Positions 481 through 48,495 of a DNA stretch of 64,000 nucleotides are shown in pieces; positions within the stretch are counted from its first letter, which is position 1, and each line of letters begins with the position of its first letter. The notes beneath the pieces are model-generated. The model had not been told where the DNA came from, did not search any database, and saw only the letters and a program-made list of their open reading frames with translations. The DNA comes from Octopus sinensis (taxonomy: Eukaryota): contig NC_042999.1 of assembly GCF_006345805.1 (NCBI RefSeq), positions 165,974,001-166,038,000 on the forward strand. The letters run 5' to 3'. The translations under genes were made by a program, and so were the position numbers.

Positions 481-1243
481 GCTCAAAATGAAGCCAGTAT
501 GCTCCGATGGATGTGTAATGTCAGTGTTCATACTCAACAGAGTGTATGTACCTTGAGAGAAAAGTTGGACCTAAGAAGCATCAGTTGTGGTGTGCAAGAG
601 AGATGTTTGCGCTGGTATGGTCATGTGACGAGAATGGATGAAGATAGTTGTGTGAAAAAGTGCCACACCCTAGCAGTTGAGGGAACCTGTGGAAGAGGTA
701 GACCCAGGAAAACCTGGGACGAGGTGGTGAAGCACGACCTTCGAAATTTAGGTCTCACCGAGGAAATGACTAGAGACCGAGACCTATGGAAGTATGCTGT
801 GGGTGAGAAGACCTGGCAGGACAAGTGAGACCATAACATATGGCCTCTACCTGGGATGTAGCCAGTCCACCTATGCATACCTTTCCTTCTTGGGACACAA
901 AACTCTACTTGTGAAGACCTGTTGGGGCAAGTGAGAATCAGAATCAAAATCGAAATCGATCAACATCAATGGAAATTGTAGCTGTGATACCAGTACTGGT
1001 GGCACGTAAAAAGCACCATCCGACCGTGGCCGTTTGCCAGCCCCGTCTGGCACCTGTGCCGGTGGCACGTAAAAAGCACCCACTACACTCACGGAGTGGT
1101 TGGCGTTAGGAAGGGCATCCAGCCGTAGAAACATTGCCAGATCAGACTGGGCCTGGTGCAGCCTTCTGGCTTCCTAAACCCCAGTTGAACCGTCCAACCC
1201 ATGCTAGCATGGAAAGCGGACGCTAAATGATAATGATGATGAT
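481..1243 (+). mobile_element. 5'-truncated RTE-clade LINE (ORF C-terminus, 3' UTR, (GAT)n tail)
   Basis: ORF 499-828 contains the RTE C-terminal signature LRWYGHVTRMDEDSCVKK...GRGRPRKTW. It is followed by a 3' UTR shared with many copies in the window and a GATGAT tail. Confidence 0.9.
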
Positions 1244-1693
1244 ATATAAAAATACAAAATGGACAAGAATGCAAAACATCCGAATAGCTAGGTGATACAA
1301 AAAGGGACAACAAAACATCCAGATAGGCGATACAAAGAAAACAAGGATGGGTCATTCGAAGTTTTCTTTCCTCAGTCAAACACCAGATTATCCTCGCAAT
1401 TTCGGCTGATCATTCTTGAGATTGCTCCAATCTGACCAGCCCCAAGGAAAAACTAAGCTAAGAGCATTAGATTCCTTGGAAGAAAGCAGTGAATGTATAC
1501 AAAAACAAGGACGGAAAAAAACAGACAAAGTTACACAAATATAAACACAATAATAAATACAATAAAAATATTTTTATTATATTTATTATTGTATTTGTGT
1601 AACTTTGTTCGTTTTTAATATTTAATAATCATAGCATTTTATTTAATCTGTATGTAGTATGAGTGAATGTATTGTATTGTTAATCTTACTTAC

Positions 1694-1782
1694 CGACACT
1701 TTCAACTTGTACTTGTTACATGACTTAATAAATCTTCTAAAGCCATCAGTCTCCTTGGTAGCAATTGTTACTATTAAGAGTT
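1694..1782 (-). CDS. PLOD: Lysyl hydroxylase (procollagen-lysine 2-oxoglutarate 5-dioxygenase), coding exon 2
   Basis: Minus-strand acceptor tctttttctctattgtAG and donor GTAAGT bracket 89 nt translating as (E)LLIVTIATKETDGFRRFIKSCNKYKLKVS. This closely resembles the PLOD1 N-terminus as I recall it ([29 protein letters not shown]). It starts in phase 1, matching exon 1. Confidence 0.92.
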
Positions 1783-2994
1783 CTACAATAGAGAAAAAGA
1801 ACAACTTGGTAACATAATTTATTCTGAAAGCTTTCTACATCAAACATGTTTGACAACTGACTTTGATAAAGCACAAACTATAACAGGACACACTTTTCTC
1901 TAGCCCAGCAGCAGAGTGTGTCAACAAGCAGATAACAAGCTGTGACAGGTAGACTTCAGCAATAGAGGTACACAAACAAGAAAATATGGATTAGATAGAA
2001 TGCTGGGAGGGAGTAAGAAATATTTATGTTAACAAGAATGATAACTTCATAGAATTAAGCCAATTAGTATCAATTAAGCCACTCTGTAACAGTGTTTCCC
2101 AACCTATTTTCCCCCAGGCCCCACTATGACTTTCCAGAAAAATGTATACTCCACCAGTGGCATACATAAAGAGATTAATAATTGACTTCTCATGATTATA
2201 TACTCTCCTTAAAGAAATATCCACACTAGGGCTTCAGAACAGTTTTCACACAGTATGCTTGGCTGAAGGAGAATTGACTTGGCTGGGCTGAGTGTAGGTG
2301 TTGTATATTTGCTGTGAGAAGAAAAGATTTTCAAGAAAAAATGTTGGATCTCATGCCCCATGTTGCTCTGCATGGTTTTTTGGCCCATTAGAAACAGTAA
2401 CCTATTTCCTCTCAAATCACTCTTTATCATTCGATAATGTAGCACTGCACATCCATAAAAAGACAAGATCATAATGGCAAGAAATTCCTCAGATCATAGA
2501 TCCACTGCTTCAGGTTCAATCTAAGGCTAAAAAGTAAAGCAATGACTTCATAGATTGGAGAACATTCATAAGTTTGAATGCCTATTTTCACTCCTAGACT
2601 GATCATACATGTTTCTCTATCTATCTAACTATTTTATCTGATTTCTATCTATTTTGTCTGATTTGTTCATTTCTCCTCTCGTTATATGATCGACCTTCAT
2701 CCTCTCGTTATATGATCGACCTTCGTATGATCGACCTTCGTGTATCGCGGTGCACCCACCCTGCCCACCCCCACCACCAATACCGGATATCTCTATTTTT
2801 CTCCATCTATACCGGATGTCGCTTCTCCCACTACCATTATAGGTGTCTTCTCTTCGAACCCCCCTCTTCAATACGCTATTTTACCATGCATTACCCCTCT
2901 CTTGATATCCTACCTTCTACTTGCCTACAACCTGTCATCATTTCTCTGAACCACCCCTCCCCACTGGTGCTCCCCTATATTCCTGCACCCCCCC

Positions 2995-3248
2995 CCCACA
3001 TAAAAAGCACCATCCGAACGTGGCCGATGCCAGACCCCTCTGGCACCTGTGCAGGTGGCACGTAAAAAGCACCCACTACACTCGCGGAGTGGTTGGCGTT
3101 AGGAAGGGCATCCAGCTGTAGAAACACTGCCAGACCAGACTGGAGCCTGGGGCAGTCCCTAGCTCCCCAGACCCCGGTCGAAACCATCCAACCCGTGCTA
3201 GCGCGGAAAACGAACGTTAAACGATGATGATGATGATGATGATGATGA
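2995..3248 (+). mobile_element. RTE 3'-UTR-derived short repeat (family A)
   Basis: Contains ggtggcacgtaaaaagcacccactacactc...ggcgttaggaagggcatccagc and a (GAT)n tail, matching 990-1243. Confidence 0.85.
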
Positions 3249-3429
3249 CAGCTGTTATGCTATGTGTTCAGGTAAAAGTCTACGTGTATAAACATAATAC
3301 AATATGCATATACAAGATGTGCCTATGAACATGTGCATAGACACATTGTTGCAGGACACAACATATATTGATGCAAGCGAAAATTAATTTTGCAATGAGA
3401 ACACCAGAGTTGTTTATAACATTCTAGCA

Positions 3430-3853
3430 TTTATCTGTTCCTTGTTTTAAACACTGGACTGCAGCCATGCTGGGGCAGTGCCCTGAAGGGCTTAGTCAAA
3501 AACAATTCAACCTCAACATTTATATATTTTTAAGGCTGGTACTTATTCTATCAGTCTCTTTTGGCCAAACTGCTAAGTTACAGACATTAAACCAATGCCG
3601 GTTGTCAAGCAATGGTGGACAACAAATAAAAACAAAAATACACATACACATTTTATATATATAGATATATAAACATATATACTCACACAAGCATATATAC
3701 AGCACAATTACCATCTACCAAATGAACTCACAAGGTTTTGGCCTTCCCAGAGCTATTGTAGAAAACCCTTGTCCAAGGTGCAACGCAATGGGATTGAACT
3801 TGGGATCCTGTGGCTGAGAAGCAAACTTCATAACATACAGCTACACAAGTGCC
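3430..3853 (-). mobile_element. tRNA-derived SINE family B, diverged copy
   Basis: Reverse-complement similarity to 18516-18924 across head, central microsatellite and tail. Confidence 0.75.
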
Positions 3854-4421
3854 TATGTCAGTAACTCCAACATTTTACATTTATTTAAACGAAATCGCTG
3901 TTAAATCTGAGTATGTTTATTGCTGAAAGGGGATATATAATGTTAGTTTTACCAAGATAATCAAATACATTTATTAGAGTTTGTAGAGTTCAGTTGGTGT
4001 TAGTGTAGGAAAATGTAGTGGAAGTGGAATACTGAGGTATGTCAATAAGTTGTAAATACAGGAAATATCTAACACTTGACATCACACATTCTTCCATTTC
4101 TGACTTCCACTATTCAGCTGGGAATTTATTCATTTGAGCTATTTACAGTAAAAGTAATCATTGTGTAGAGAACCATAACTATATATAAGTTATAATTAAA
4201 ATTAAAGTTTAGATATGAAAGTTTAAAATTTAGCATCCAAACCTTATTTTGAGCATGTTCCTAGTAGTGTGCCGGCAGAGCATGTTCACCACTTACAGGA
4301 TGCATTTGATTTCAGTATATCATTCCTCACCCACAAGGGAGCAGTGCAGAATTATGTCGAAACGATTGTTGTGATAAATAAAGTTTCCAGTACACTCTAT
4401 CATTTAGAATATACATATATA

Positions 4422-5288
4422 CTAGCTTAAGGTGATTCGCTCTACACGAAGGTGAGGATGTGGTTGTTACTTTCTGTTGCTTCCTTTTTGTTTCTTATCG
4501 CCACATTCTCCCTCTTTGTTTCTCTCTCCTTTCTCTTTCACTTTCTTTTACGCATGCACATATCACAAAAATAATTCAAAATTACTGAAAAATTTTGTGA
4601 AATTTGATACTTTTTTGGCATATTTTGACGTTTCATAATGCAAATGAAAGCTAAAATTTTGGCCTTTAACACAATGCTATTTTTACCCATGTCAACCAAA
4701 TAATGCAAACAGAAAAAAATTAAATCTAAAAATAGGGCAAAAATGTACTCATTTTAAAAGTTGAAAAATTTTAACCCCTTTTCCAAAATCACCCAAATTT
4801 TTACTCCCACAATTAAAGATAACCGCCTCTAGCCCCTGCAGCAACACGAAAAGCCACCATTATTCAAACAGTGCAACCTGTCTATCCCATAAAAGTCTAT
4901 TTTTCCCATATTCCTCACCATGGCAACCAGACAGTAGCCCCGAGCAACTTACAACCCTCCTCACACCATTGCCCACCCCATTTTACACCCCCCCCCGTGT
5001 AAATTTTGGCACCAATCCAACCCCATCTACTGCCCCTTAAACCATTCCCATACCAAAATGAGACAAATAGCCAAGAAATCAAACAACCTTTTCACATTTC
5101 AGATTTATAGATATTGATGATTATATATAGACGCATATATATATATATACACATTATATATATATATTTATATACACACATATATATATAAATTAACACA
5201 ATATATCTGATTAATATCTGTTATGATTGTGCGGTGGTGGTGGGCGATAATAATTCACTTTTTCGCATTTCAGCTTTATAGATATAGA
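4422..5288 (-). mobile_element. Probable non-autonomous Helitron
   Basis: CTAG end at 4422 next to a weak hairpin (ttcg...cgaa); a TC-TATATCTATAAAGCTGAA-type 5' end near 5288, with a similar end near 5118. Confidence 0.5.
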
Positions 5289-5290
5289 TT

Positions 5291-5800
5291 GTTATACTTG
5301 GGGATGGTCATATTTTGCTAATTAAACACAAGCAAAAAGTGCCAAAAAGTTCCTGGTTTTAAGGGTATCATGAAGGGCCTGGTTTTAGTTTTCCCAGAGC
5401 TATAATAGAAAGGCCTGGTTGGAGGACCAACTTTCTGAGTTCTTCTTCAGGGCTTACAAAAGACGAGGACTGCTGCAACAAGTGTGTGAATCTGAGAGGG
5501 GGAATATGTTGAATAAAATCATAACTCATTCTCTTGTATTTTCTTTTACCCAAAGCCAGGACCTTTTCAGCATCCCCTTGTATATGCTTGGTCTTTACTT
5601 CCGCTTTATTATCATTATTTTTGCCCATGTCGCTGAAGAGGACACAGGATGTGTGACAAGAGCTTAGACAAAGAAACAAAAATAATAATAAAGCTGAAGT
5701 AAAGATCAAACATACAGTGTTTAATTGGCAAAATATGACCATCCCCAAGAATAACAATGTTTCAACACATGATTTCACATCAAGAACCTTGCAAAACAAA
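5291..5800 (+). mobile_element. Penelope-like terminal repeat remnant with inverted end duplication and degenerate hammerhead motif
   Basis: 5291-5330 is an inverted copy of 5718-5757. Similar to 23062-23290 and 44944-45232. Motif tgtcgCTGAAGAggacacaggatgtgtgac-aaga-gctta-gaca lies at ~5628-5670. Confidence 0.65.
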
Positions 5801-6413
5801 TACATAAATGTGTGTGTGTGTGTGTGTACTAACATTTGTTTTCCATGCTGACATGGGCTGGATGGTTTGACAGGATCCAATGAGCCAGAGGGTTGCATTT
5901 AGCTCCATGTCAGTTTTGGTATGATTTGTACAGTTAGATCCCTTTTCTAATGCTAAAACACTCTACAGTATGAGCACTAGGTGTTTTGTTTTTTTTTCAT
6001 TACACCAGCACTAGAGAGGTTGCCAAGAAACTTGCAAAACAGGAATGAACAAGAAAAAGGAAAAGGGGAATAGGCTACAATACTACAAGTGTAGAAAGGA
6101 TTATTAAGTGGGAAGTAGCTATACAATATGTATACCATGATTCAATTGTATCCATAGCTACCTTTCTGCAAAGTGTAAACATTAGTGAAACCAATTTTAA
6201 AACAGAGGACTAGAAATAAAAAGAAAAAAACTGATCACATATATACATAAACGGTAAATGGACCCTTTGACAGTTTCATTGATTATCATTACAAAAGGGG
6301 TGACTTTGAAGTTCTGGCCCGCTAGTCTTCATTGGACATTTATTTGTGTGTGTGTGTATGCATGTATATATATATGTATACACATACATGTATGTAATGT
6401 ATATATATATTTA

Positions 6414-7546
6414 CTAGCAGTAAAGACCCGTCGTTGCCGGGTCATAGTGCTAGTGCATGTATATATGTGTATATATATGTGTACATATTACATGTACATC
6501 TATATATATATACATCTACACATAAAACACAAAATACAAAGTTATATCTTGATATCGCTAGTGATAACAATACTCAAAATATATAACAGACTGGAATTGT
6601 TAGCCCGTCTCTAGTAATTTCGATCAATTGTGCCTAGTCCTCCCTCTTGTATAGAAGTGTGGCTACAATCCAGCCTACCTCTACTTTGGAGGGGGGGGGG
6701 GCATTTTAAAATTTTTTTCCGGGACGTCCTACGTCCCAGATATAAAGGTAGAAATAAAATATTTCCACTTTGCAAGTTCGAGTCAAGTATTCCCTTGCAT
6801 GCTCCGTTGACTCGAACCTTGCTTCTATTGTGGTGAATTTACCGCCTCTGATTAGATATCTTTCATAGTCGCACCAAGACACTTTTCGAAGATGCTTTCC
6901 TCCATGTGTTCAAATCTTCTTTTTTCTCTACATTGTATACTTTATAGACAATAGTCTTTTCTTTAATTTAATTTTTTATTATCCATCTGGACTATTCCAT
7001 CTCTGCACGCTAATTTTATTTTTAATTTATTCCCATTCATGTGAAACCACTTATTCAAGTTCAAATCATTGATGCAATCTTATACCAATTGCTATTTTTA
7101 CTTTTGTTATGTTACGATTATATTATACTTTAGTTTGATTTTAATTATTACTTACTACATATTGTTATTATTATTTTTATTGTTAAAGTGAAAGTATCTG
7201 ACATAAAATAGAGAAATGTTTTTGTTTCACTTTTAACACGTAATACTGAAATAGTGGAGAAGATATGATATTGCTATGGGCTCGCTCTAGGCAAGAAGTT
7301 GAACATTTTTTTGCCCATGAAACTACATGGAACCTCAGTAAGGCATATGTAAAATTTGAATGGAATTGGTCGTGTAGTTCTCAAGTTTTAGGGAATCATA
7401 GTGGAGAAGATATGATATTGCTATGGGCTCGCTCTAGGCAAGAAGTTGAACATTTTTTTGCCCATGAAACTACATGGAACCTCAGTAAGGCATATGTAAA
7501 ATTTGAATGGAATTGGTCGTGTAGTTCTCAAGTTTTAGGGAAACAC

Positions 7547-7581
<35 letters not shown>

Positions 7582-7605
7582 CTCTCAGTTTTATATATAT
7601 AAAGA
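6414..7605 (-). mobile_element. Non-autonomous Helitron with internal 147-bp tandem duplication
   Basis: On the minus strand: A|TC 5' end at 7605, (CTGT)n microsatellite, hairpin gacccg...cgggtc, and CTAG|T 3' end at 6414. The duplication at ~7251-7545 explains the repeated peptide in ORF 7265-7702. Confidence 0.85.
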
Positions 7606-7845
7606 TATATATATATATATATATATATACTTATACATATGTACATGTACATGTGATTGTGTGTGTGTGTATGTATATATATACATAGTTCAAATTTACT
7701 GAAAACAAAAGATGAAGACAGCTGTATCACTTCAAAGGCGAGGAAGAATGAAAAAAAAAAACAGAGAAAAAAACGTATAGGGATTAATGGTTCAACATGA
7801 TGAAATAATGTGTGTGTGCATTTGTGCGTGAGTGATATTTAATGT

Positions 7846-8112
7846 ACACCGTATACAAGTAGTTTTATGCATCAGAGATGTGGTCTAGACAAATCTTAAT
7901 AACATGTCATGTGTCTTCAAGCCCTGAGTCCATCCACCTTCTCATTTTCTCTCATAAGTGATCTTCATCTAGGGCCCTAGTTTGTATATTGTATAGTTCA
8001 TGTATTCAGAGCCTAGTGGCAGCTTAAAGATACAAGGCATGTTATTAAAACATGTCTAGACAAAATCTCCAAAGCATGAAACTATTAAAAGCTTGTAATT
8101 GTATACTGTGTA
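7846..8112. mobile_element. Fold-back MITE with imperfect ~80-bp TIRs
   Basis: Paired segments tacaccgtatacaa/ttgtatactgtgta and gtctagacaaatcttaataacatg/catgttattaaaacatgtctagac, with TA at the ends. Confidence 0.65.
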
Positions 8113-8121
8113 AAGTAGATA

Positions 8122-8164
<43 letters not shown>

Positions 8165-8311
8165 AAAAGCAATAAAGATTCAAGTTAATTTAAATGAATT
8201 TACTTGAATATGGTACCTAACTTAGATGCACCAAAAAAAACTATACTGTTTTAACAATACAGTAATGCAGGGTGATTATAAGCGAGAAAGAAGCAACAAG
8301 AATGGATAGGT

Positions 8312-8402
8312 TTTTAGTACAATCGTTTCATACAAGGACAGGCTTTATTAAAAGTTGTAAAAATTACAGCATATAAACGTGTCCCGTACTCATCAGCTAA
8401 AA
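8312..8402 (-). ncRNA. Type I hammerhead ribozyme motif (sense to PLOD pre-mRNA)
   Basis: Reverse complement of the motif at 9407-9497. Confidence 0.75.
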
Positions 8403-9406
8403 TACATGTGAGTTCTCTAGACATCCTAGTGGTTGAGGCTATACTCATGAAGTAATGTAGATAATTAAGTAACATAAACAGATTTCCAAAGTTCATTAAA
8501 GTTCTTTAAAGATGATGTACAGTCTTATCACAGAATTTTAAAAAAGTTTTAATAGCATCACAGAGAAGGTGACCTAATCCATAGAGCACATATGAATTTC
8601 CAGAGATATGATGAGGGATTACATACTCACAGAAGACAAATTTATCCATTGTTAATCACAACGAGGTGGGTCTCAATTCCTGCTTATTAGCATTACAGAG
8701 AGGGTGAATTAATCCTTTGTATAGATGCACAATTTCCAATGGTGTAGATGTAAATTTCCAGAGAAATGAAGAGGAATTTCATATTCACAGGCGATAAATT
8801 TATCAATGGTTGAACACAATGAGGTAGGTATCAATTCTTGTTATATGATTAGGTATTTGCCACATTAATCACATTACTGCTATTTACAAGAGGCTGTAGC
8901 TATTTAACTTTTAAAGGCTGAAGGGCTTTCTAGAGAGGCAAAGAATAGAAAAGGGAAGGGAATAGAAGAAAAGAGAGAAAATAAAGGAGGAGGGAGCAAA
9001 AAAGGGGGGGAAGGGGACTAAAAGAGAAGAGAAAAGGAAAAAGAGAATAAGAAGAAGAAAAAGAAAAAAGAGAAAAGAGAAAGAAATAGGGAAAGAAGGG
9101 AAAAAAGAAAAAAAAAAAAAAGAGGGTTCTAGTTATACAGAAGAATTAGTAGACGGCAAGTCTGGTTTTAATTTACAGGCATCTAGGAACTAGAGGAGAA
9201 TATTATTCTTTGGCCAGTAAAACAGCTAATTTATTGCTGTTGAAATCAGCTATGAATTTAAAGAGAATCTAAAGAGATAACACAGTCAGGGGTTTAGGGG
9301 TCAGATGCTTTAATGAACTTTGGAAATCTGTTTATGTTACTTAATTATCTACATTACTTCATGAGTATAGCCTCAACCACTAGGATGTCTAGAGAACTCA
9401 CATGTA

Positions 9407-9497
9407 TTTTAGCTGATGAGTACGGGACACGTTTATATGCTGTAATTTTTACAACTTTTAATAAAGCCTGTCCTTGTATGAAACGATTGTACTAAAA
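9407..9497 (+). ncRNA. Type I hammerhead ribozyme motif (minimal stem III, PLE type)
   Basis: Stem I ttttag/ctaaaa; core CTGATGA; stem II gtacgggaca/tgtccttgtat around a long loop; GAAA; stem III Ac-gatt-gT; cleavage triplet GTA. Confidence 0.75.
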
Positions 9498-9528
9498 ACC
9501 TATCCATTCTTGTTGCTTCTTTCTCGCG

Positions 9529-9559
<31 letters not shown>

Positions 9560-9689
9560 TTTTATTCTTTTACTTGTTTCAGTCAGTTGACTGCGGCCAT
9601 GACACAGCACCACCTTAAAGGGCTTTAGTCGAACAAGTCAAACCCAGGACTTTTTTAAAACCTAGTACTTATTCTATCTATCACATTTG

Positions 9690-10152
9690 CTGACTGTCGT
9701 CTGTGCTAGCAGGATGCAAAGAGCACCATATAAGTGGGATCATTGACAGAGCGGCTAACCGGCATCCATGCCAGTGGCACTTAAAGGCACCATTCAAGTG
9801 TGATCGTTACCAGTGTCGCCTTACTGGCACTCATACCCCGTGCTAGTAGGGTATTAAGAGCACCATCCAAGCATGATCGTTGCCAGAGCGGCTATCTGGC
9901 CTCTGTGCCGGTGGCATGTGTAAAAGATTCAAGCGAGGTCATTGCCAGTACCGCCTGACTGGCCCCGTGCCAGTGGCAAATAAAAGCACCCACTACACTC
10001 TCGGAGCGATTGGCGTTAGGAAGGGCATCCAGCTGTAGAAACTCTGCCAGATCAAGATTGAAGCCCGGTGCGGCCATCTGGTTCGCCAGCCCTCAGTCAA
10101 ATCGTCCAACCCATGCCAGCATGGAAAGCAGACATTAAACGATGATAATGAT
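9690..10152 (+). mobile_element. RTE 3' UTR (family A) with ~5 tandem ~58-bp units
   Basis: Repeated gtgccrgtggcac...aaagcacca units, followed by the conserved 3' end and GAT tail. Confidence 0.85.
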
Positions 10153-10377
10153 ATATATATATATATAAGTGCAAAGTAATAGCTACTGTTCTCTGAAGCA
10201 GCTAGATTTGAAAATTCGATGTATAGATAAACAAAACAGGTACGTGTTTTTCTGAGGATTGGTCAAATGATAAGATATCAATAAGGGTTGAAAATCAATT
10301 ATGTCTGTTTGCCATTTCCCCATCTTTGGACAAATAAGTAAATTTGACAGACTTGTATGTCTAGTATGAAGGTTTAA

Positions 10378-10761
10378 GCACAGAAGTGGCTGTGTGGTAA
10401 GAAGCTTGCTTCCCAACCCCATGGTTTCGGGTGCAGTCTCACCATGTGGCACCTTGAGCAAGTGTTTTCTTCTATAACCTCAGGCTGACCAAAGCCTTGC
10501 GAGTGAATTTGGTAGACGGAAACATCGTATGTGTGTGTGTGTGTGTATGTTTGTGTTACTGTGTTTGTCCCCCCACCATCGCTTGACAACCAATGTTGGT
10601 GTGTTTATGTTCCCGTAACTTAGCGGTTCAGCAAAAGAGACCAATAGATTAAGTACTAGACTTACAAAGAATAAGGCCTAGGGTCTATTTGTTCAACTAA
10701 AAAGGCAGTGCTCCAGCATGGCGACAGTCAAATGACTGAAACTAATAAAAGAATAAAAGAA
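10378..10761 (+). mobile_element. tRNA-derived SINE family B
   Basis: gtggctgtgtggtaag head, (TG)n core, and cagcatggc...aaatgactgaaac tail. Confidence 0.85.
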
Positions 10762-12057
10762 TATATATATATATGGGTGGCTAATTTGTAATTTTACAAC
10801 CTAACAGCAGAAATATATCCGTCACTATAGTGAAATAATAGTAAAAACTACTCAATAGCCACAGAAGCAGGATCTTAATGACTGAGAAGGGAGGGAAGCT
10901 CCCTACAGCAACAGATCATCAATGCTTTCACATTTTGATGCTCACGCATTTTAATGCTCATTGATGGCTCTCACTGCTCCTAGGGTTAAACTCGGCTTAT
11001 AAAATATATATATATACAAACACACATATATGTATGCATGTACCAAGCAGTCGTACTCACATACAGAAAAAGAGTACAGCATGTTTTTTAAGTAAATCAT
11101 CTATACACACACACACATACAAATGCACACCATCCAAACTGAAGCCACAATAATTAGTTTACAGATAGATATATCTAGTTTCCATTTCTGAACAGTGGTT
11201 TAATATTTCCAGTCAAAAGGCAGCTCTGTTGCCAGACATTTCCTTTGTCACATGCCAACAATTCCTCTAAATCCGGCAAACAATCTATAAACATCTGCTG
11301 CATCCTATTCCAAATCAGTTGACTCAACAAATCTCATCTTTATTCAACAAAGATGAGCCAACCACCCTCTTAGGATGCACATCACACAACTGAAATGATA
11401 ATATATATTTTTGAAACAACTGTAATCAATGAAATTAATATAAATTTTCAACATCCAGATGTACGTATGAGAATGTATGTGTGTATGATTGTGAGTGCAT
11501 GTATATCAGAGTATGTGTGTGTGTCTATGTAAGTGTTGATGTGTAAGAGTAGACGTGTGAGTGTGAGCATATGAATATAGATGTGTGAGCGTATGTATGT
11601 GTATGTAAGTGTGTATATGTGTATCTATGTGAGTGCATATGAGCATGTATGTGAGTGTGTAGGTATGTGATTGTTGGTCTGTAGTGTACATGTGCGTGTG
11701 CGTGTGTTACTGTTAACTTTCAACTGATCAGGAACCTTTCAACCCAAGAAGTTTACAGGCGTCCACCAAGATCAGATCTGATCAGAGCACTGAGCTACAG
11801 TTTGCTGATAATTCTGCTCCTGTAACTCATGCTTTCCAAGTCCTATTGGTTGTTCATCATCCCAGTAACCATTCCAAAAAGTCAATGTATGTTTACATGT
11901 AAGCATGTGTGTGTATTCATATACTGTTTCCCTGCCTCATGCAGTCTCAACAATCCAGGACAAATGTCTACATACTGTAAACTTTAAGGGAACTCATCAC
12001 ACGCTAAAAAAAAATCAAGAGTAAGATCTTCAGAATGGGGGTCAATTCAGTCTTTAA

Positions 12058-20077: not shown

Positions 20078-21341
20078 CAAGGGACGTTCAATAAGTAATG
20101 CCCCTGACCCACTTGCAGTTGTTTGATCTAGCTGAAATTTTGCAAGTGCAATTATTTATATCTCTATAGATTAAGTGGCAAATACAGGTTTCTGATTTAC
20201 AGGTGTTTGAACTGAGTCAAGTGTGAAACGGAGCCTGTTGAGCGTCGAGCAGTGATCCGGTTTTTGTATTTGAAAGAACACACACCACGGGAGACTTTTG
20301 ATTAAATGAAAGTAACTTATGGTGATGATGCCCCATCATATGACCTTGTAAAACGCTGGCATTGTGAATTCAAACATGGTCAGATCTCTGTGGAAACAGC
20401 TCCCAGATCTGGTCGTCATTGATGAGGCATCTCTCTGTCAAGTTGAGGCTGCCATTTTGGAAGATCGACACATAACTATTCGCCAAATAGCCCATGAGGT
20501 CAAAATTAGTACTGGGTCTGTGGAAACTATCATTCATGACCATTTGCATATGCAAAAGGTGTCTGCCAGATGGATTCCCAGGTTGCTCACACCTTTCCAG
20601 AAGCAACAACGCGTCGAGTGCTCGAGGATGAATTTGGAGATGTGCCAAGAAGATGAGTCAAAATTTTTCAAAAGACTGATTACACAGGATGAAACCTGGG
20701 TCCATCACTATGATCCAGAGACCAAAGCCCAGTCAATGCAGTGGAAGCTCCTTGACTCACCTCCTCCAGAGAAGGCAAGGGTGCAGCTCTCCGCTGGCAA
20801 GGTCATGCTCACAGTCTTCTATGACCAGGACGGAGTAGTGATGACAGATTTCCTGGCAAAGGGTACCACAATTACAGGAGCCTATTATGCTTCACTTTTG
20901 AGGAAATTAAGAGAAGCTATCAAAATCAAGAGGCGGGGCAAGATCAGCAAAGGCATCCTCCTCCTGCAGGACAATGCTCTGGTCCACAACTCACGTGTCG
21001 CCAGATCAGAAGCACAGGCGTGCGGCTATGAACTCCTCCCCATCCTCCCTACTCCCCTGACCTTGCACCCTCTGATTTTCACCTCTTCCCAGCCATGAAG
21101 TTGTTTTTGAAAGGAAAGTGTTTCCCAGATGACGCAGCCTTGATTTCTGAAGTCACGTCATGGTTGGAGGACCAAGCTGGGGTCTGCTACAAAAACGGTC
21201 TCCAGAGCTGCATCAAACGATGGGAGAAATGCATAACTCTGGGTGGTTCCTATGTAGAAAAAGACTAATAACTGTGCCAAGTTTTGTAGCTCTACTTCTA
21301 TGGGAAGTGGGTCAGAGGCATTACTTATTGAACGCTCCTCG
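20078..21341 (+). mobile_element. Full-length mariner (DD34D) transposon with frameshifted transposase
   Basis: TA-flanked TIRs caagggacgttcaataagtaatgcccctgacccactt / aagtgggtcagaggcattacttattgaacgctcctcg. ORF 20364-21098 has WIPRLL, TQDETWVHHY and LLQDNA; the YSPDLAPSDFHLF motif is in a shifted frame. Confidence 0.95.
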
Positions 21342-36120: not shown

Positions 36121-36181
36121 CTTGACAGACGACCATATAAAGATCCAAAAGTGCGCAAAGAATTAAGATATATTTCTTCAT
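36121..36181 (-). CDS. PLOD: Lysyl hydroxylase PLOD coding exon 1 (signal peptide)
   Basis: ATG at 36181 gives MKKYILILCALLDLYMVVCQ plus one G, then a CAAG|GTGAGT donor. G+AA forms GAA (Glu) in frame with exon 1694-1782. The basic-then-hydrophobic peptide fits an ER-luminal enzyme. Confidence 0.85.
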
Positions 36182-40889: not shown

Positions 40890-41340
40890 TATTGGATTGT
40901 CCAGAAAGTTTGTGCCGATTTATAGCAGCTTACCTTTTGACTTATTTTAGAACACGGTTGAGTTCATAAAATAGGATTTGACTACACCTCCATTTAGAGC
41001 ACAGTTTAAGCTATCTTTTCTTAGAAGAAGGTTTATGTTCCTATAACCTATGTTAATTCTGTAACCCTTTAAAATGGAAGATAAGAAAGTTCATTTTCGG
41101 CACTTGATGCTTTGGGAACCAGACAAAAATTGCTGCAGATCAGCTGGGATGTGTTACCCCACCCTCCATATTCACCAGATATTGCTCCTTTGGATTTCCA
41201 CTTATTCAGGTCGCTGGAGAATAGTCTTAATGGTTAAAATTTCGATTCCTTGAATGACATAAAAAGATACTTTGATGAATTCTTCGCCATGAAACCACCT
41301 CAATTCTGGTAAGAGGGTATTTTCAAGTTAAGGGAAAGAG
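40890..41340 (+). mobile_element. Internally deleted mariner, truncated at the RTE junction
   Basis: TIR-like tattggattgtccagaaagtt; MEDKKVHFRHLML start joined to WDVLPHPPYSPDIAPLDFHLFRSL. Confidence 0.85.
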
Positions 41341-44217
41341 TAGCACTTTTGATGTTTTGTACTGATAATAATCTGGTTGCCACCAACACTTTGTTTAAGC
41401 AGCAAAATAAATATAAAATCACCTGGATGTACTCAAGATCTAAGGACTGGCATCTCATAGATTATATTCTGATCAGAAAACATGATATGAAAGATGTTTC
41501 TAGTGTCCGGGCCATGAGAGGGGCAGAGAGCTGGGCTGACCATCATCTAGTGTGTGAAAAAATAGATTTTTCGATAATGCCTAAAAATCGACAGTCTGGT
41601 TCTAAGGTACCGAAAAAGTTAAATGTTGCAAACTTTAAATAATCAGGCAACTTGCAAAGATTCCACGATGAAATACAAAGCTTCAATCTTGACCCAAACA
41701 ATCTATGGGAAGATTTCAAAACAAAAGTATTTCAGGTTGCAAGTTTGTCAGTGGGATTTAGATTACGTAAGTCCAGTGACTGGTTCTCAGACAGATCAGC
41801 AGAAATGCATGATCTACTTTTAGAAAAACAAAACTTAGGCAATACACTTCTTTCTCAGTCATTCAACCCCAACTCAAACAAAGCTTACTAAAAGATGAAA
41901 AGTAAAGTGCAGACTGCGCTAAGGAAAATTAAACTGGAAAGGTGGAATGATAGAGCAAAAGAGACACAAGAAGCAGCTGATAGAAATGATGCCAAGAGTT
42001 TGTACTCTTATGTTAAAGAGGTATATGGCTCAAAATCTTCTTCAATAGCTCTGGTGAGAACAGCAAATGGACGTTTGCTTCTGACTAACACCGCTTCTAT
42101 TCACAAGCGCTGGGTAGAATATTTTTCTGCACTTTTGAATAGACCATCATCCGTTGACATGAGGAGGATAGAAAAAATCGAACACCTTCCAGTTATAGAA
42201 GAGATGGCATTTGAATCAACTCTAAATGACATTTATTTAGCTGTGAATAAGCTGAATAACAATAAGTCTCCAGGGTCTGATGGAATCTGGGCAGAAGTCT
42301 TGAAATATGGGAGTGACAAATTGTTTGAACTCTTTGTTTGAAATATATTAATTTCTCACTGTTGGAGAACTGAGAAAGTGCCTCAAGACTGGATTGATGC
42401 CATTTTAATCTCCTTGTATAAATTGGGGCCAAAGGATTCTGTGTGGCAATTTTCGTGGGATTTCGCTTTTGTCTGGGGTTTGAAAGGTACTTACCCACAT
42501 TTTGTAAGAACATTTAAATACCTTCATAGTTCCAAATATAGTGTTTGAGTCTCAGTGTGGTTATCGTTCCTCCAGGGGCACAGCTGATTGTATCTTTACT
42601 ATCAGACAATTACAAGAAAAGTGCATTGAACAGAATCTTGCTCTATACCATTACTTTGTTGGTTTGAACAAAGTATTTGATAATGTTAATTGAAATGCTC
42701 TGTGGCTAATTCTAAGGAAAATAGGTTACCCAGAAAAATTTGTAAACATGGTCAGGGCTTTGCATCAAGATATGAAAGCTACAGTTAACTTTGGTGGTAG
42801 GCTCTCCGAATCTTTTGCTGTGGAAAATGGAGTAAAGCAAGGAGACCTTGATGCACCCACCCTCTTTGCAACATACTTTGCTGTTGTGTTGTCACATGCT
42901 TTTCAAAACTCTGAGGAGGGTATTTACATAAAATATCGAACAACAGGGAATGTTTTTAGTCTGACTGAAATTCAAAATAAAGGTTTTTACTTCACTCATT
43001 TGGGAACTTTTATATACTGATGATTGCCATCTTATCAGTCATTCTGAAACAGGTCTGCAATCTCTTGTATCTGAATTTGAATCAGCTTGTGATGATTTTG
43101 GCTTGACCATCAACTTGAAAAAAAAAAACAGTTGTAATGTGTCGACCTGCATGTGGTGCTGTTTGTAACCCCACTAAAATTTTTGTTAAGGGAAAGTTAC
43201 TTGAGGTTGTTGATTCGTTCATCTACCTCGAAAGAGCTGTACCAAATGATGGAAATCTTGATACAGAAATACATCTGTGAATTCAAAGGGCAGCAAAAGC
43301 ATTTGGTGGTTTGGAGTCACGCGTTTGATGCCAGTGACATATAAATAAGAATACAAAGTTGGCTCTTTACAAATCATTAGTCTTACCATTCCTGTTGTAT
43401 TCTTGTGAAACATGGACTTATGAAAAACATTTTAAATTGTTAGAACAATTCCACCAAAAATGCTTTCATTGCATTTTAAACATTAAATGGAGTTCTTTTA
43501 CTCCAAACAAAGATGTCCTTGCATCTATTGGCATCACCTCAGTTGAAGCTATGATTTTGAGGAACCAAATGAGATGGTGTGGCCATATTGTTTGAATGGT
43601 AGATGAATGCATGCTGAAACAGCTGTTTTATGGTGAGCAAGCGGAAGGGAAACGCTATCGGCATAAATCTAAAAATAGGTATAAGGATAGCATAAGGACT
43701 ACTATGAAGTCACTTGGAATAGACCCAGAAGACATGGAAACCCTTGCTTCAGATCGAATTAGCGAACAAAAGTGTGAAGTGGAGTGAAAGCATTTGAAGA
43801 GGCCAGGGTAATACATGTAAGACTCAAAAGAGATCTAAGGAAGAATGTTGCGATCGAGAAGGTGAATGACAATGACCTTTTTGTGTGCACAGTCTGTGAC
43901 AGACCATGCCATTCTTCTGCTGGGCTCAAATCTCATTTGCAAACCCATGAAAATGAACCTCCACCAACTATTCTGCCTATATGACTGTGTATGCCGGAAG
44001 GTTTGCAAATCCAACGGAGGCCTCAAAAGACATTTTAAGATCCACAAAGATCAGAACTTATTTGCAGCTCTTGGTGTTCCAAATCAGATATGCAATCTAT
44101 GTAGGCATCTTTTCAGAACATTGTCTGGTTTAAAAAGCCACATCAGATGCCATGATGCTTCTAAGGAGTAGGTACAAGAGGTGGTCAAACTCTGCATAAG
44201 GAGTAGACAACCACCAT
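41341..44217 (+). mobile_element. Degenerate RTE-clade LINE (APE C-terminus, RT, C-terminal C2H2 fingers)
   Basis: Fragments WHLIDYILIR...ADHHLV (APE), NNKSPGSDGI, GVKQGDLDAPTLF (RT) and MRWCGHIV, then three Cys/His fingers; many stops and frameshifts. Confidence 0.92.
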
Positions 44218-44437: not shown

Positions 44438-44860
44438 TGTAAATGTAATATGTGACAATTATTCGGTAGCCAAGATATAAAACTCCGAGTTTCGTCACCG
44501 AGGTGGAAATCCATGCCAACATCTCTTCAGTTATCCGGCCATCGGAAAAACGCTATGAAAAATGACCATTATACAAAGGGAAATAACTGTGTAATTGACC
44601 GTTATCAAGACAAAAGAGCTATTCGAATGACCGCTAATTAAAGTAAGGGGGTAAAAAGTTCATAACGGTCATTCGAATAGCTCTTTTGTCTTAATAACAG
44701 TCAATTACACAGTAATTTCCCTTTGTATAACGGTCATTTTTCATAGCGTTTTTCCGATGGCCGGATAACTGAAGAGATGGTGGCATAGATTTCCACCTCG
44801 GTATCTGAAACTCAGAGTTTTATCTTGGCTATTGAATAATTGTCACATATTACATTTACA
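44438..44860. mobile_element. Fold-back of PLE-type terminal repeat (~195-bp arms) with hammerhead-like motifs
   Basis: 44438-44633 pairs with 44666-44860; ggataa CTGAAGA...GAAA ctc(a/g)gag TT ttat occurs on each arm. Confidence 0.75.
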
Positions 44861-44943
44861 GATAAATTACTCTATTTACATAATATTGAGGTCTCTTTCT
44901 TTCTTTTGTTACCTTACCGTTTTTACTAATATATATATTATAT

Positions 44944-46090: not shown

Positions 46091-48495
46091 CAGTGGTTCC
46101 TTCACTTACAAGTTTCATTCGTTCCATGATGGAGCTTGTAACTCAAATTGATTGAATGTCAAATTAAATGACCCCATTGAAATCACCTGAAATGCTATTA
46201 ATCTGTTCTGCACCCCCCACCCCCCAAACACCACAGTTTATTTTCTTATGTGTTTTTAAAAAAGGAAAAATGTATTTATAAATTATGAATATTGTATAAA
46301 AGACAATACAATGGAATGTACTGCAATAAACTGATTTTATTAAGTGTAATGTACAGCATTTACCTTCGAGATCAGACGACTTGAGGATGCCAACAGAAGG
46401 TGGAGGGGAAAGACTGAAATGAACAACTGAATCTTATCCACGGATTTTGGCCCTTTTCGCCACGCTTTCCTCACTTTCATCAGCAGGAGTTTTCGATAAC
46501 AACCTGTTCAATAAGGTTTGTTTCATCCTTACTGTCAAAGTGTTTCTGAAATGAGTTCAGCAATTGTCATTAAATTGTGCCATCACATGGCCACTTGCAA
46601 CTTTTTCTGGATGTTTCTTTTGAATAAAGTCTGAAAGTTTCTCCCAACATTTCCTTTATTGCACTGGTAGAGATAACCTCCTCCATCCCCCCACCCTTGT
46701 CGCCTATTTCCTGCAAAATCTCTGTATACTGCTGCATCTGTAGCTTCTTTAGCTCTTCCACTGACAATTCTTCAGAGTGCTCCTCGATGAGCTCATTGAT
46801 GCCATCTTCATCCTCATCCAGGCCCATGCACATGCTGAGCGATACAATCTCCTCCTCCACCACTGCTGCTTCAGGTTCGAGTCTTTCAAAGTCCATTTCA
46901 GACACAACTTTAGGCGACAGCTTCATCCATGCAGAGGTGAAGGTCCTCTTTGTAACACCTTGCCAGGCCATATCAATAATTCTGAGGCGTACCACGATGT
47001 TATAGTGTTCCTTCCAGAACTCTTGAAAAGTGAGGTTTGTGTTTTCCATCACCCCAAAGCAGTGGCAGAACAGGTGCTTGGTGAAGAGCTTCTTAAAATT
47101 AGAAATCTTCTGCTGGTCCATGGGTTTCAGGACAGGGCTGGTGTTGGGTGGAAGGTAGAGAACCTTTATAAACTTGAACTCTTCGAGGATGTCATCTTTG
47201 AGGTTAGGTGGGTGAGCAGGTGCATTTTCCAGGATGAGAAGGGCTTGCAGGAGTAGGTTATTTTCCTGGAGATATTTCTTAATGTCGGGACCAAAGACCA
47301 AATTGACCCACAAATAACTGCCTGGCAACTTATGACCTTGGATTTGCCCTTCACATAACCTGCAGTTTTTCTTTCAAAATCTTATGTAACTTAAAGGCTC
47401 TGGGGTTTCCTAAATGATAATGAGCAGTGGTCTAATCTTGCAGTTGCCGCTCGCTCGCATTAGTGCACAGTGCAAGGGTTAGCCTCTCCTTCATGTGTTT
47501 ATGGCTGGGCATCCTCTTCTCCTCTGCTGCTATATAAGTCCACGTTGAAGAATTGCTGGTGGATGTATCCTTTGGCTGCCATAATTCTGGCAAAAGTTTT
47601 GAGGTAATCCTCAGCAGCCTTCATGTTTGCTTCTCGCTGCCTCACCATGGCTGACAAGTGGGTGAATACCGGTCCGCTTTTAAAATTCTTGAACCAGCCC
47701 CAACTAGCTTTAAATGGTTCACCTGATGTCTCGGCCATACAAGTGCCTGGGGTCTGTTGCAGCAAATCAGCATAAATAGCTCAGGCTTTCTCACAGATTA
47801 TGGCCTCTGTCATGGTACCTCCTGTAAGCTGCTTCTCCGTCAGTCACACTATCAGCACTTCTCCATATTTTCATGGATAGATGTCTGATGTTTAAAAACT
47901 ATTTCAATGCCCTTGGCTGGCATTATAATCTTTATCGACTCCTTCTGCTTCTGTATGGTGCAGATTGTAGAAGTGCTAGGCCCGTACTGCTTCACCATGT
48001 CACTACATGCACACATCGATCATGTTTTTCGATAATTTCTTTCTATAATTCAATGCACATTATCCGCTTCTTCTCGCCACGTCCTTCACACTCACTTTCT
48101 TCAGATCCATGGCAGCTGAGGATTACCTCAAAACTTTTGTTGCCAGCACAACACTGATGCTTCTGTAGCCTGCAACAACTAAGTAAGCATTTTACCACTC
48201 ATCTAGCTAATGATCCACTAATGATCTTCGCACTTGCTAACACACATGTCTGTCTGGCTAGCGACCTATTTATGATATTGCACTTGCTAATGTGCATACC
48301 TGTCTAGGTATCAAGTGAGACACGGGATGTTAAGGTGTTCCTGTGGTATTTGATATACCAACTAGCAGTGGGGTATCTGAAGCAAGCTTGTTACCAGAAT
48401 TTTAGCGTGCAACTCAAAGCGAAAGATCAGCCAACGAACAGCTCATATCTCGAAACACTCATTAGTTGGGACACTCATAAGTCAAGGCACCACTG
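46091..48495 (-). mobile_element. Full-length Tigger/pogo transposon with decayed transposase
   Basis: TA|cagtggttccttcacttac...ataagtcaaggcaccactg|TA. Contains FKASWGWFKNFK (CENP-B-type HTH) and LLILENAPAHP...LPPNTSPVLKPMDQ (DDE_1-type domain). Confidence 0.93.

What the first reader, a model, noticed from the sequence alone, without database searches (positions are those of the whole stretch)
8282..9527. Intact hammerhead core on the sense strand of the PLOD intron, paired with its own 220-bp antisense copy
Seen: each arm has all type I hammerhead elements (stem I ttttag/ctaaaa, CUGAUGA, ~10-bp stem II, GAAA, minimal stem III, GUA site). Known: PLE termini carry minimal hammerheads that often need to dimerise through a palindromic loop III; here ACGATTGT is one change from the palindrome ACGATCGT. 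Inference: on the PLOD pre-mRNA the antisense arm (9527-9308) is made first and could capture the ribozyme arm (8501-8282) in a 220-bp duplex. That would silence the ribozyme and create an ADAR/Dicer substrate, and editing could in principle release it.
Basis: partly seen in the sequence, partly recalled or inferred. Interest (0 to 1): 0.75.

Follow-up and report, generated by a model that had tools for sequence, protein, structure and literature searches.

The report
Young Penelope insertion with masked hammerhead
This is one of many hundred recent, broken insertions of a Penelope-type jumping gene, lying in the first intron of a collagen-modifying (PLOD) gene; its back-to-back ends are likely a by-product of how it was copied in, and the long hairpin they are predicted to form would keep its self-cutting RNA motif off even after heavy RNA editing, so it is likely not a switch for the host gene.

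Summary
Observation confirmed: the arms are 220/220 identical, each holds a type I hammerhead, and they lie in PLOD intron 1. The pair is not a ribozyme with a dedicated antisense partner. It is a 5'-truncated copy of a very young Penelope-like element with Hydra-clade motifs (2,506 exact motif copies in the genome), inserted in (TA)n as two 3'-end pieces joined head to head. Arm length varies from about 40 to 1,070 nt among copies. In 28 of 28 two-ended young insertions, and 17 of 18 in older subfamilies, one end stops at a 'short' site and the other carries a 119-nt tail, which suggests priming on both target strands from two start sites. The hammerhead covaries across subfamilies and is dimer-type, but has no sense partner here. 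The duplex is predicted (-388 against about -11 kcal/mol); simulated editing never refolded the ribozyme (0 of 24). Opposite-strand hammerhead pairs, one-ended tails and siRNAs from inverted Penelope copies are in print, and this scan noted the same layout in other families. Open details: an extra G at 76% of short ends, and splice-acceptor-like sites between the arms.

The parts
8163..9309 (-). Main piece: 5'-truncated 3' end of the Penelope-like element (3' UTR, pLTR with hammerhead, 119-nt tail), sense to PLOD
   Evidence: 97-99% identical and colinear with sister copies that continue past 9309 into an RT + GIY-YIG frame
8163..8281 (-). Tail: same sequence as the leader between the 5' pLTR and the ORF in long copies; two conserved hairpins; ends at the distal putative RT start site
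   Evidence: L050 and L053 internal copies run on into the ORF; consensus fold with 2 compensated pairs in 7 rows
8282..8501 (-). Sense arm on the PLOD strand (part of the main piece)
8312..8402 (-). Type I hammerhead, sense to PLOD; predicted cut between 8318 and 8317; dimer-type helix III
9308..9527 (+). Second, shorter element piece in inverted orientation, ending at the 'short' site; antisense arm on the PLOD strand
9407..9497 (+). Identical hammerhead on the + strand; predicted cut between 9491 and 9492
9308..9309 (.). 2-nt microhomology (CT) at the head-to-head junction
9528..9528 (+). Extra G at the short end; the internal element sequence has T here
   Evidence: 34 of 34 tail or internal pieces read T; 24 of 29 short ends read G; genome-wide 698 G against 219 T
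8126..8162 (.). (TA)n target, left flank
9529..9557 (.). (TA)n target, right flank
8930..9127 (-). Pyrimidine tract of the element's 3' UTR with acceptor-like TAG at 9018 and 8930, between the arms, sense to PLOD
   Evidence: 2 of 3 such sites in the 34-kb intron under my own cut-off; absent from older subfamilies; use untested
8344..8349 (-). AATAAA in stem-loop II, 26 nt before the ribozyme cut site (mirror copy 9460-9465 +); possible poly(A) signal
   Evidence: AATAAA or ATTAAA in 9 of 9 aligned rows; function untested
36121..36181 (-). PLOD coding exon 1 (signal peptide), GTGAGT donor
   Evidence: joins exon 2 in phase 1; inferred from sequence
1694..1782 (-). PLOD exon 2 (start of the GT domain)
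   Evidence: Pfam PF25342; LH3/PLOD3 chains as best PDB matches, weak

Best explanation
The region is a recent, 5'-truncated insertion of a Penelope-like retrotransposon with Hydra-clade motifs into a (TA)n repeat of PLOD intron 1, made of two 3'-end pieces joined head to head; the pieces are likely two cDNAs primed from the two target strands at two fixed start sites, and the hairpin they are predicted to form would keep the hammerhead off, likely with no role for the host gene. Shown: identity of the pieces, the family's ORF, the (TA)n target, the short + tail pairing, variable arm length, hammerhead covariation. Inferred: the endonuclease cuts both strands of (TA)n; one 3' end primes 36 nt and the other 155 nt downstream of the ribozyme cut site; both cDNAs stop early (1,147 and 220 nt here) and are joined through a 2-nt microhomology. 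Since both starts lie 3' of the cut site, the template was uncut or religated there. The ribozyme is under selection in the element's own tandem RNA, where two sense copies can pair through palindromic helix III. In the intron it is a lone monomer inside a 220-bp duplex. The duplex is probably edited or diced like other inverted repeats and is removed with the intron.
For: 2,506 exact copies of a 16-nt hammerhead motif, control 1. 56 of the first 100 listed hits form 28 outward pairs 192-7,721 nt apart. Of 37 young insertions, 28 show both ends pointing outward and all 28 are short + tail; 8 show one end; 1 is a direct tandem. Two older subfamilies: 17 of 18 outward pairs. Arms run from 38 to about 1,070 nt. 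All 8 of 59 pieces with the 8358 variant occur as 4 same-locus pairs, so both pieces come from the same kind of template. [quoted passage not shown] Hammerhead pairs: 92% of 216 cells paired, 4 pairs changed on both sides, slid controls 27-46%. Duplex -388.5 against -10.5 kcal/mol for the ribozyme fold, 220 of 220 paired in the MFE; 0 of 24 edited folds form stem I. In vitro a Poseidon PLE cuts and extends both strands, starts at two internal sites bounding the tail, needs no hammerhead cleavage, and its ribozyme needs the protein (PMC11167929); single minimal hammerheads showed no cleavage (PMC4209133).
Against: No RNA evidence specific to this locus: only contigs were available and they mix all copies. 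No empty allele was seen, so age and target duplication rest on copy identity. Clade placement rests on motifs, not a tree. Loci were the best-scoring, hence youngest, hits. One short + short pair exists, and a few insertions differ at single sites between their two pieces. Arkhipova et al. explain head-to-head inversions by self-priming on antisense RNA (PMC3846280); PMC11167929 saw no difference in start site between strands. Equilibrium folding ignores splicing kinetics and proteins. The covariation set has 9 related rows, so its shuffle counts are not probabilities.
Confidence: 0.86

Rival explanations
1. One reading: the antisense arm silences an otherwise active ribozyme in PLOD pre-mRNA and A-to-I editing releases it to cut the transcript.
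For: Duplex predicted in full; 146 adenosines in the duplex; repeats and introns are widely edited in coleoids (PMC9068888, passages).
Against: Stem I formed in 0 of 24 simulated edited folds, with 49-90% of the ribozyme still paired to the arm; the chance that five core A's all escape is 33%, 12%, 3% at 20, 35, 50% editing. No dimer partner in the intron. The layout is generic to the family. No excess of A>G/T>C places in two RNA-type runs against two other runs, a weak test.
Confidence: 0.03
2. Splicing, not editing, unmasks the arm: PLOD exon 1 sometimes splices to the element's pyrimidine tract (9018 or 8930), which drops the antisense arm with the intron and gives a short exon 1-element RNA ending at the AATAAA or hammerhead site; the insertion would act as a weak gene trap.
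For: Both acceptor-like sites lie between the arms, sense to PLOD, with 92-98% pyrimidine upstream; both give early stops; AATAAA sits 26 nt before the cut site with a U/G-rich tract after it.
Against: No such joint among those listed (exon 1 was outside the stretch laid, so this was not tested). The sites lie in the loop of a very stable hairpin. The freed ribozyme would still be a monomer. The hexamer may be kept as part of stem II or by A+T richness.
Confidence: 0.07
3. The inverted arm arose by fold-back or self-priming of one cDNA or antisense RNA, or by template switching, not by priming from both target strands.
For: Proposed for Adineta Penelope (PMC3846280); some copies here are perfect palindromes without spacer (L005, L012).
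Against: A fold-back copy should end where the first piece ends or at random; instead the two ends are different fixed sites in 45 of 46 pairs, either piece can be the longer one, and both are joined directly to (TA)n.
Confidence: 0.12
4. The insertion is a MITE or DNA transposon with 220-bp terminal inverted repeats.
For: Perfect inverted repeats in a TA context.
Against: Arm length differs in every copy, the interior is the 3' UTR of an RT-coding element, and the left end extends 119 nt past the arm.
Confidence: 0.01

Closest known systems
Hydra clade of C-terminal EN+ Penelope-like elements, incl. Hydra-1_Obim (Craig et al. 2021, PMC8557442; passages, section 11 and supplement rows read)
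   Same: RWK, DKT, CxCX5C linker, no CCHH, CxxC and CxH near the EN end, (TA)n target, hammerhead near the 3' end with palindromic helix III, inverted truncated copy with a tail at one end only.
   Different: Unit about 4.6 kb against under 3 kb; ORF 947-1,105 aa with two N-rich inserts; 3' UTR about 1.4 kb; tail 119 nt against 30-40; 60-nt stem-loop II. The listed Hydra-1_Obim hammerhead and N-terminus differ by eye (not aligned), so this is another family.
Minimal and atypical hammerheads of metazoan PLEs (Cervera and de la Pena 2014, PMC4209133; results and discussion read)
   Same: Type I, small palindromic helix III, dimer design; the paper already reports pairs of motifs 100-700 bp apart on opposite strands.
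   Different: Here G10.1.U11.1 instead of G-C, no bulged base after A9, long loop II with an AATAAA.
Poseidon PAc of Anolis (Frangieh et al. 2024, PMC11167929; main text read)
   Same: Two internal RT start sites bounding the tail, downstream of the hammerhead, near stem-loops; AT-rich target.
   Different: Other clade; here the hammerhead lies upstream of the ORF start, the sites are 119 nt apart, both abut UAUA-like motifs that match the target, and each insertion uses one of each.
Adineta vaga Penelope with inverted pLTRs and N-rich inserts (PMC3846280, passages)
   Same: Head-to-head inversions, optional tail on one pLTR, microhomology joins, asparagine-rich ORF inserts.
   Different: Few copies there; antisense self-priming proposed.
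Penelope inverted-repeat siRNAs in Drosophila (PMC3681739, passages)
   Same: Inverted Penelope copies give dsRNA processed to siRNAs that map to the inverted parts.
   Different: Not tested for this locus.
L1 twin priming (Ostertag and Kazazian 2001; recalled, not read)
   Same: Both target strands prime, giving an inverted insertion.
   Different: In L1 the two cDNAs copy different parts of one RNA; here both copy the same 3' region from two fixed starts.

Membership tests
EN+ Penelope-like elements | Single ORF with RT and GIY-YIG endonuclease | tested here: met
   947-aa frame in L103 with YRDD; GIY-YIG Pfam E 7e-4 to 3e-3, below cut-off, in two C-terminal pieces, no family hit for the full-length frames; 54 homologues at E<=1e-10. 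The window copy itself holds no ORF.
EN+ Penelope-like elements | Partial tandems forming pLTRs, inverted 5'-truncated copy, tail at one end | tested here: met
   L050, L053, L113 tandems; 28 of 28 outward pairs short + tail
Hydra clade | RWK motif and DKG changed to DKT | tested here: met
   RRIRWK and PADKTG against PMC8557442 section 11
Hydra clade | CxCX5C linker, no CCHH in the EN, CxxC and CxH around the conserved E and N; C-terminal EN | tested here: met
   CKCRIKSKC; one C between VIY and YIG; CQLC; CVH
Hydra clade | Insertion into (TA)n and a hammerhead near the 3' end | tested here: met
Hydra clade | Generally short, under 3 kb (descriptive) | tested here: not met
   Unit about 4.6 kb; due to N-rich inserts and a long 3' UTR
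Hydra clade | Grouping with Hydra RTs in a tree | not tested
   Reference sequences were seen only as cut text in a supplement
Type I hammerhead ribozyme | Core CUGANGA, GAAA, NUH and helices I-III | tested here: met
   covariation in 9 rows
Type I hammerhead ribozyme | Rfam RF00163 gathering score | tested here: not met
   18.4 of 34 bits, long loop II
Type I hammerhead ribozyme | Self-cleavage | not testable with these tools
   needs in vitro transcription
Editing-controlled ribozyme switch in a host intron | Editing refolds an intact, active ribozyme | tested here: not met
   simulation only: 0 of 24
MITE | Fixed terminal inverted repeats shared by copies | tested here: not met
   arms 38 to about 1,070 nt

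The most novel reading that the evidence does not exclude
Each insertion of this family records an asymmetric two-primer reaction: an RT dimer holds one uncut RNA unit by its structured 119-nt leader and assigns one target strand to each of two start sites, and at the proximal site it makes a telomerase-like two-base template slip (or adds an untemplated C) in three of four events. With about a thousand near-identical insertions, this family would make the unexplained tandem/inverted Penelope integration cycle directly testable. As a side effect, sense copies in introns carry a splice acceptor between the arms that could unmask a combined poly(A)/ribozyme site.
Probability: 0.2. Interest if true: 0.6.

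Novelty: new member of a known kind. Interest (0 to 1): 0.3.

Why it matters
As a host-gene switch it would have been striking, but the evidence points to an ordinary transposon scar. Its value is as a record of mechanism: a very young, abundant Penelope family with a near-strict one-short, one-tail rule, an extra G at most short ends and a covarying dimer palindrome gives sharp predictions for how Penelope-type enzymes, sisters of telomerase, integrate. It also shows that such elements seed hundreds of near-perfect hairpins in an animal with very active RNA editing.

Tried and rejected
Rfam over 30 kb gave only microsatellite-driven miRNA matches and no hammerhead. PDB sequence search with the RT found nothing; Pfam gave no family for the two full-length frames. 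No RNA holder was listed on record for the exon 2 region. Laying contigs of two RNA-type and two other runs on window 1000-11400 showed the family in all four but nothing locus-specific: no usable editing, splice, cleavage or empty-site signal; this is no evidence either way. An intron in the element, suggested by earlier notes on other families: no colinear deletion with GT..AG ends against L103 among loci L001-L062 and L083-L103; the pyrimidine tract is not conserved in older subfamilies. Selenoprotein (Naiad type): rejected, the EN is C-terminal and the intact frame has no in-frame TGA. Hammerhead variation inside the young family is uninformative: 5 variable sites in 59 pieces, none in the core. 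My descriptor missed the second hammerhead family at 44.5 kb because of its stem II register, and found hammerheads in only 10 of the 20 loci L103-L122. Literature searches with no direct report: Penelope + twin priming + inverted (2 papers listed, neither on this by title or abstract); octopus + Penelope + hammerhead (4 listed, only PMC8557442 relevant); hammerhead + intron + inverted repeat + editing terms; Penelope-like + polyadenylation signal + hammerhead (1 review, listing only). bioRxiv 10.64898/2026.07.22.740005: passages read, no octopus mention; its supplements were not seen.

Full report
Observation. Positions 8282-8501 and 9308-9527 are exact reverse complements. Each carries a type I hammerhead: stem I UUUUAG/CUAAAA, CUGAUGA, a 60-nt stem-loop II, GAAA, ACGAUUGU and a GUA site. 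Rfam aligns its Hammerhead_1 model at 9407-9497 with 18.4 bits, below the gathering score of 34. A structural descriptor finds only these two sites in the window and none in 30 shuffles. PLOD is on the minus strand: exon 2 (1782-1694) matches GT_PLOD, and a signal-peptide exon at 36181-36121 joins it in phase (inferred from sequence). The element thus lies in a 34.3-kb first intron with the antisense arm made first. The genome is probably an octopus, judged from the two named protein matches.

What it is. The arm has many identical copies: 41 of 43 reported matches were full-length and identical, from 40 of 745 candidates scored, and a 16-nt hammerhead motif occurs 2,506 times against 1 for the control. 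[quoted passage not shown] It shows the motifs given for the Hydra clade of Penelope-like elements: RWK, DKT, CxCX5C, no CCHH, CxxC and CxH, (TA)n target (PMC8557442 section 11). It is longer than described members (unit about 4.6 kb, N-rich inserts) and differs by eye from Hydra-1_Obim. No tree was built. The window holds only the 3' end: a main piece 9309-8163, sense to PLOD, and a second piece 9308-9527 in inverted orientation, joined by a CT microhomology and flanked by (TA)n.

The arm is not a unit. Among copies the inverted overlap runs from 38 to about 1,070 nt. Of the first 100 listed motif hits, 56 form 28 outward pairs 192-7,721 nt apart. The layout is symmetric, so whichever strand is transcribed, the antisense arm comes first; nothing about it is special to PLOD. 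Opposite-strand hammerhead pairs (PMC4209133) and inverted truncated copies with a tail at one end (PMC8557442; PMC3846280) are in print.

Two fixed ends. Pieces stop either 36 nt after the ribozyme cut site ('short') or 119 nt further ('tail'); the tail is the leader that precedes the ORF in long copies and holds two conserved hairpins (7 rows, 2 compensated pairs). Of 37 young insertions, 28 show both ends pointing outward and all 28 are one short + one tail; 8 show one end and 1 is a direct tandem. Two older subfamilies give 17 of 18. Independent, equal use of the sites would give half same-type pairs. Either piece can be the longer, and all 8 of 59 pieces with one loop variant occur as 4 same-locus pairs. 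I infer priming from both target strands, one per start site. This fits the PAc biochemistry, where both strands are cut and extended from two internal sites and hammerhead cleavage is not needed, although no strand preference was seen there (PMC11167929). Both starts lie 3' of the cut site, so the template was uncut or religated. The loci were the best-scoring hits, hence the youngest. The scan noted the same two-site rule in other families.

An unexplained detail. Short ends read ...CTCGC-G-TATA in 24 of 29 pieces, whereas 34 of 34 tail or internal pieces have T there; genome-wide 698 G against 219 T. An older subfamily shows a like extra G in 2 of 16 short ends. It could be an untemplated base, a two-base slip, a target base, or copying of a read-through RNA from a source copy; my data do not separate these.

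The ribozyme is real in the element. Across 9 copies from subfamilies whose RTs are 77-97% identical to the query, 92% of 216 cells pair, 4 pairs change on both sides, and slid controls reach 27-46% (rows are related). Helix III stays self-complementary: ACGATCGT in 34 of 35 and ACAATTGT in 32 of 33 readable copies of two subfamilies; the window's ACGAUUGU pairs with itself through two G.U. Four nested pairs without a loop can form only between two motifs, so this is the dimer design. Single motifs of this kind showed no cleavage in vitro (PMC4209133), and the PAc ribozyme needed protein.

In the PLOD intron. No second sense hammerhead is present. The arms are predicted to pair over all 220 bp (-388.5 kcal/mol against -10.5 for the ribozyme fold). 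Treating 20, 35 or 50% of the 146 duplex adenosines as unable to pair, which favours release, left 49-90% of the ribozyme paired to the arm and never formed stem I (0 of 24); the five core adenosines would all escape editing in only 33, 12 or 3% of molecules. Editing or dicing of the duplex is plausible: repeats and introns are widely edited in coleoids (PMC9068888) and inverted Penelope copies yield siRNAs in flies (PMC3681739). The intron has 20 inverted pairs of 50 nt or more covering 4,635 nt; this one is the only near-perfect pair among the 15 printed. Public contigs gave no locus-specific evidence.

A better route to a host effect. The young subfamily carries a long pyrimidine tract with acceptor-like TAGs at 9018 and 8930, between the arms and sense to PLOD. 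Splicing from exon 1 to them would drop the antisense arm and give early stops. An AATAAA or ATTAAA lies 25-26 nt before the cut site in 9 of 9 rows. Both are untested, and the hexamer may be kept as part of stem II.

Verdict. Observation confirmed; interpretation partly supported. A new family of a known kind, likely inert at this locus; of modest interest as a record of the Penelope integration mechanism.

Noticed in passing
window 44440-44930: A second, older and unrelated hammerhead family in the same head-to-head layout (hammerheads at 44530 - and 44769 +, helix III ACTCGGAGT / ACTCAGAGT), one end at (TA)n; 4,116 first-look candidates in the genome, best other copies 92%. Upstream of PLOD exon 1.
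   Followed up: partly
window 9528; genome-wide: Extra G at 698 of 917 exact short ends, where the internal sequence has T.
   Followed up: partly
window 9460-9465 (+), 8349-8344 (-): AATAAA/ATTAAA in loop II 25-26 nt before the cut site in 9 of 9 rows, followed by a conserved U/G-rich tract: possible poly(A) site on top of the ribozyme.
   Followed up: partly
window 9018 and 8930 (-): Strong acceptor-like sites between the arms, sense to PLOD.
   Followed up: partly
window 8163-8281 (-): Tail of 119 nt, longer than the 30-40 nt in print, with two conserved hairpins; candidate protein-binding site.
   Followed up: partly
L103 1998-4841; L110 2055-5372: ORFs of 947 and 1,105 aa with two asparagine-rich inserts of different length, as in Adineta Penelope.
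   Followed up: no
G000 genome-wide: At least six related lineages at about 97, 85, 79, 72, 58 and 47-51% RT identity, several with long open frames.
   Followed up: partly
window 8581-8682 and 8739-8840: 102-nt direct repeat (78%) inside the element's 3' UTR.
   Followed up: no
window 7251-7544: Near-perfect 147-nt tandem duplication.
   Followed up: no
window 20352-21098 (+): Mariner-type transposase fragment (PF01359, E 5e-22) in PLOD intron 1.
   Followed up: no
window 41313-43595 (+) and 46570-47780 (-): Broken LINE-like RT frames and DDE/pogo-like transposase frames upstream of PLOD, recognised by eye from translations.
   Followed up: no
L111 646 (-) and 2075 (+): Another outward-pointing pair of compact hammerheads of a third family next to a related element.
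   Followed up: no
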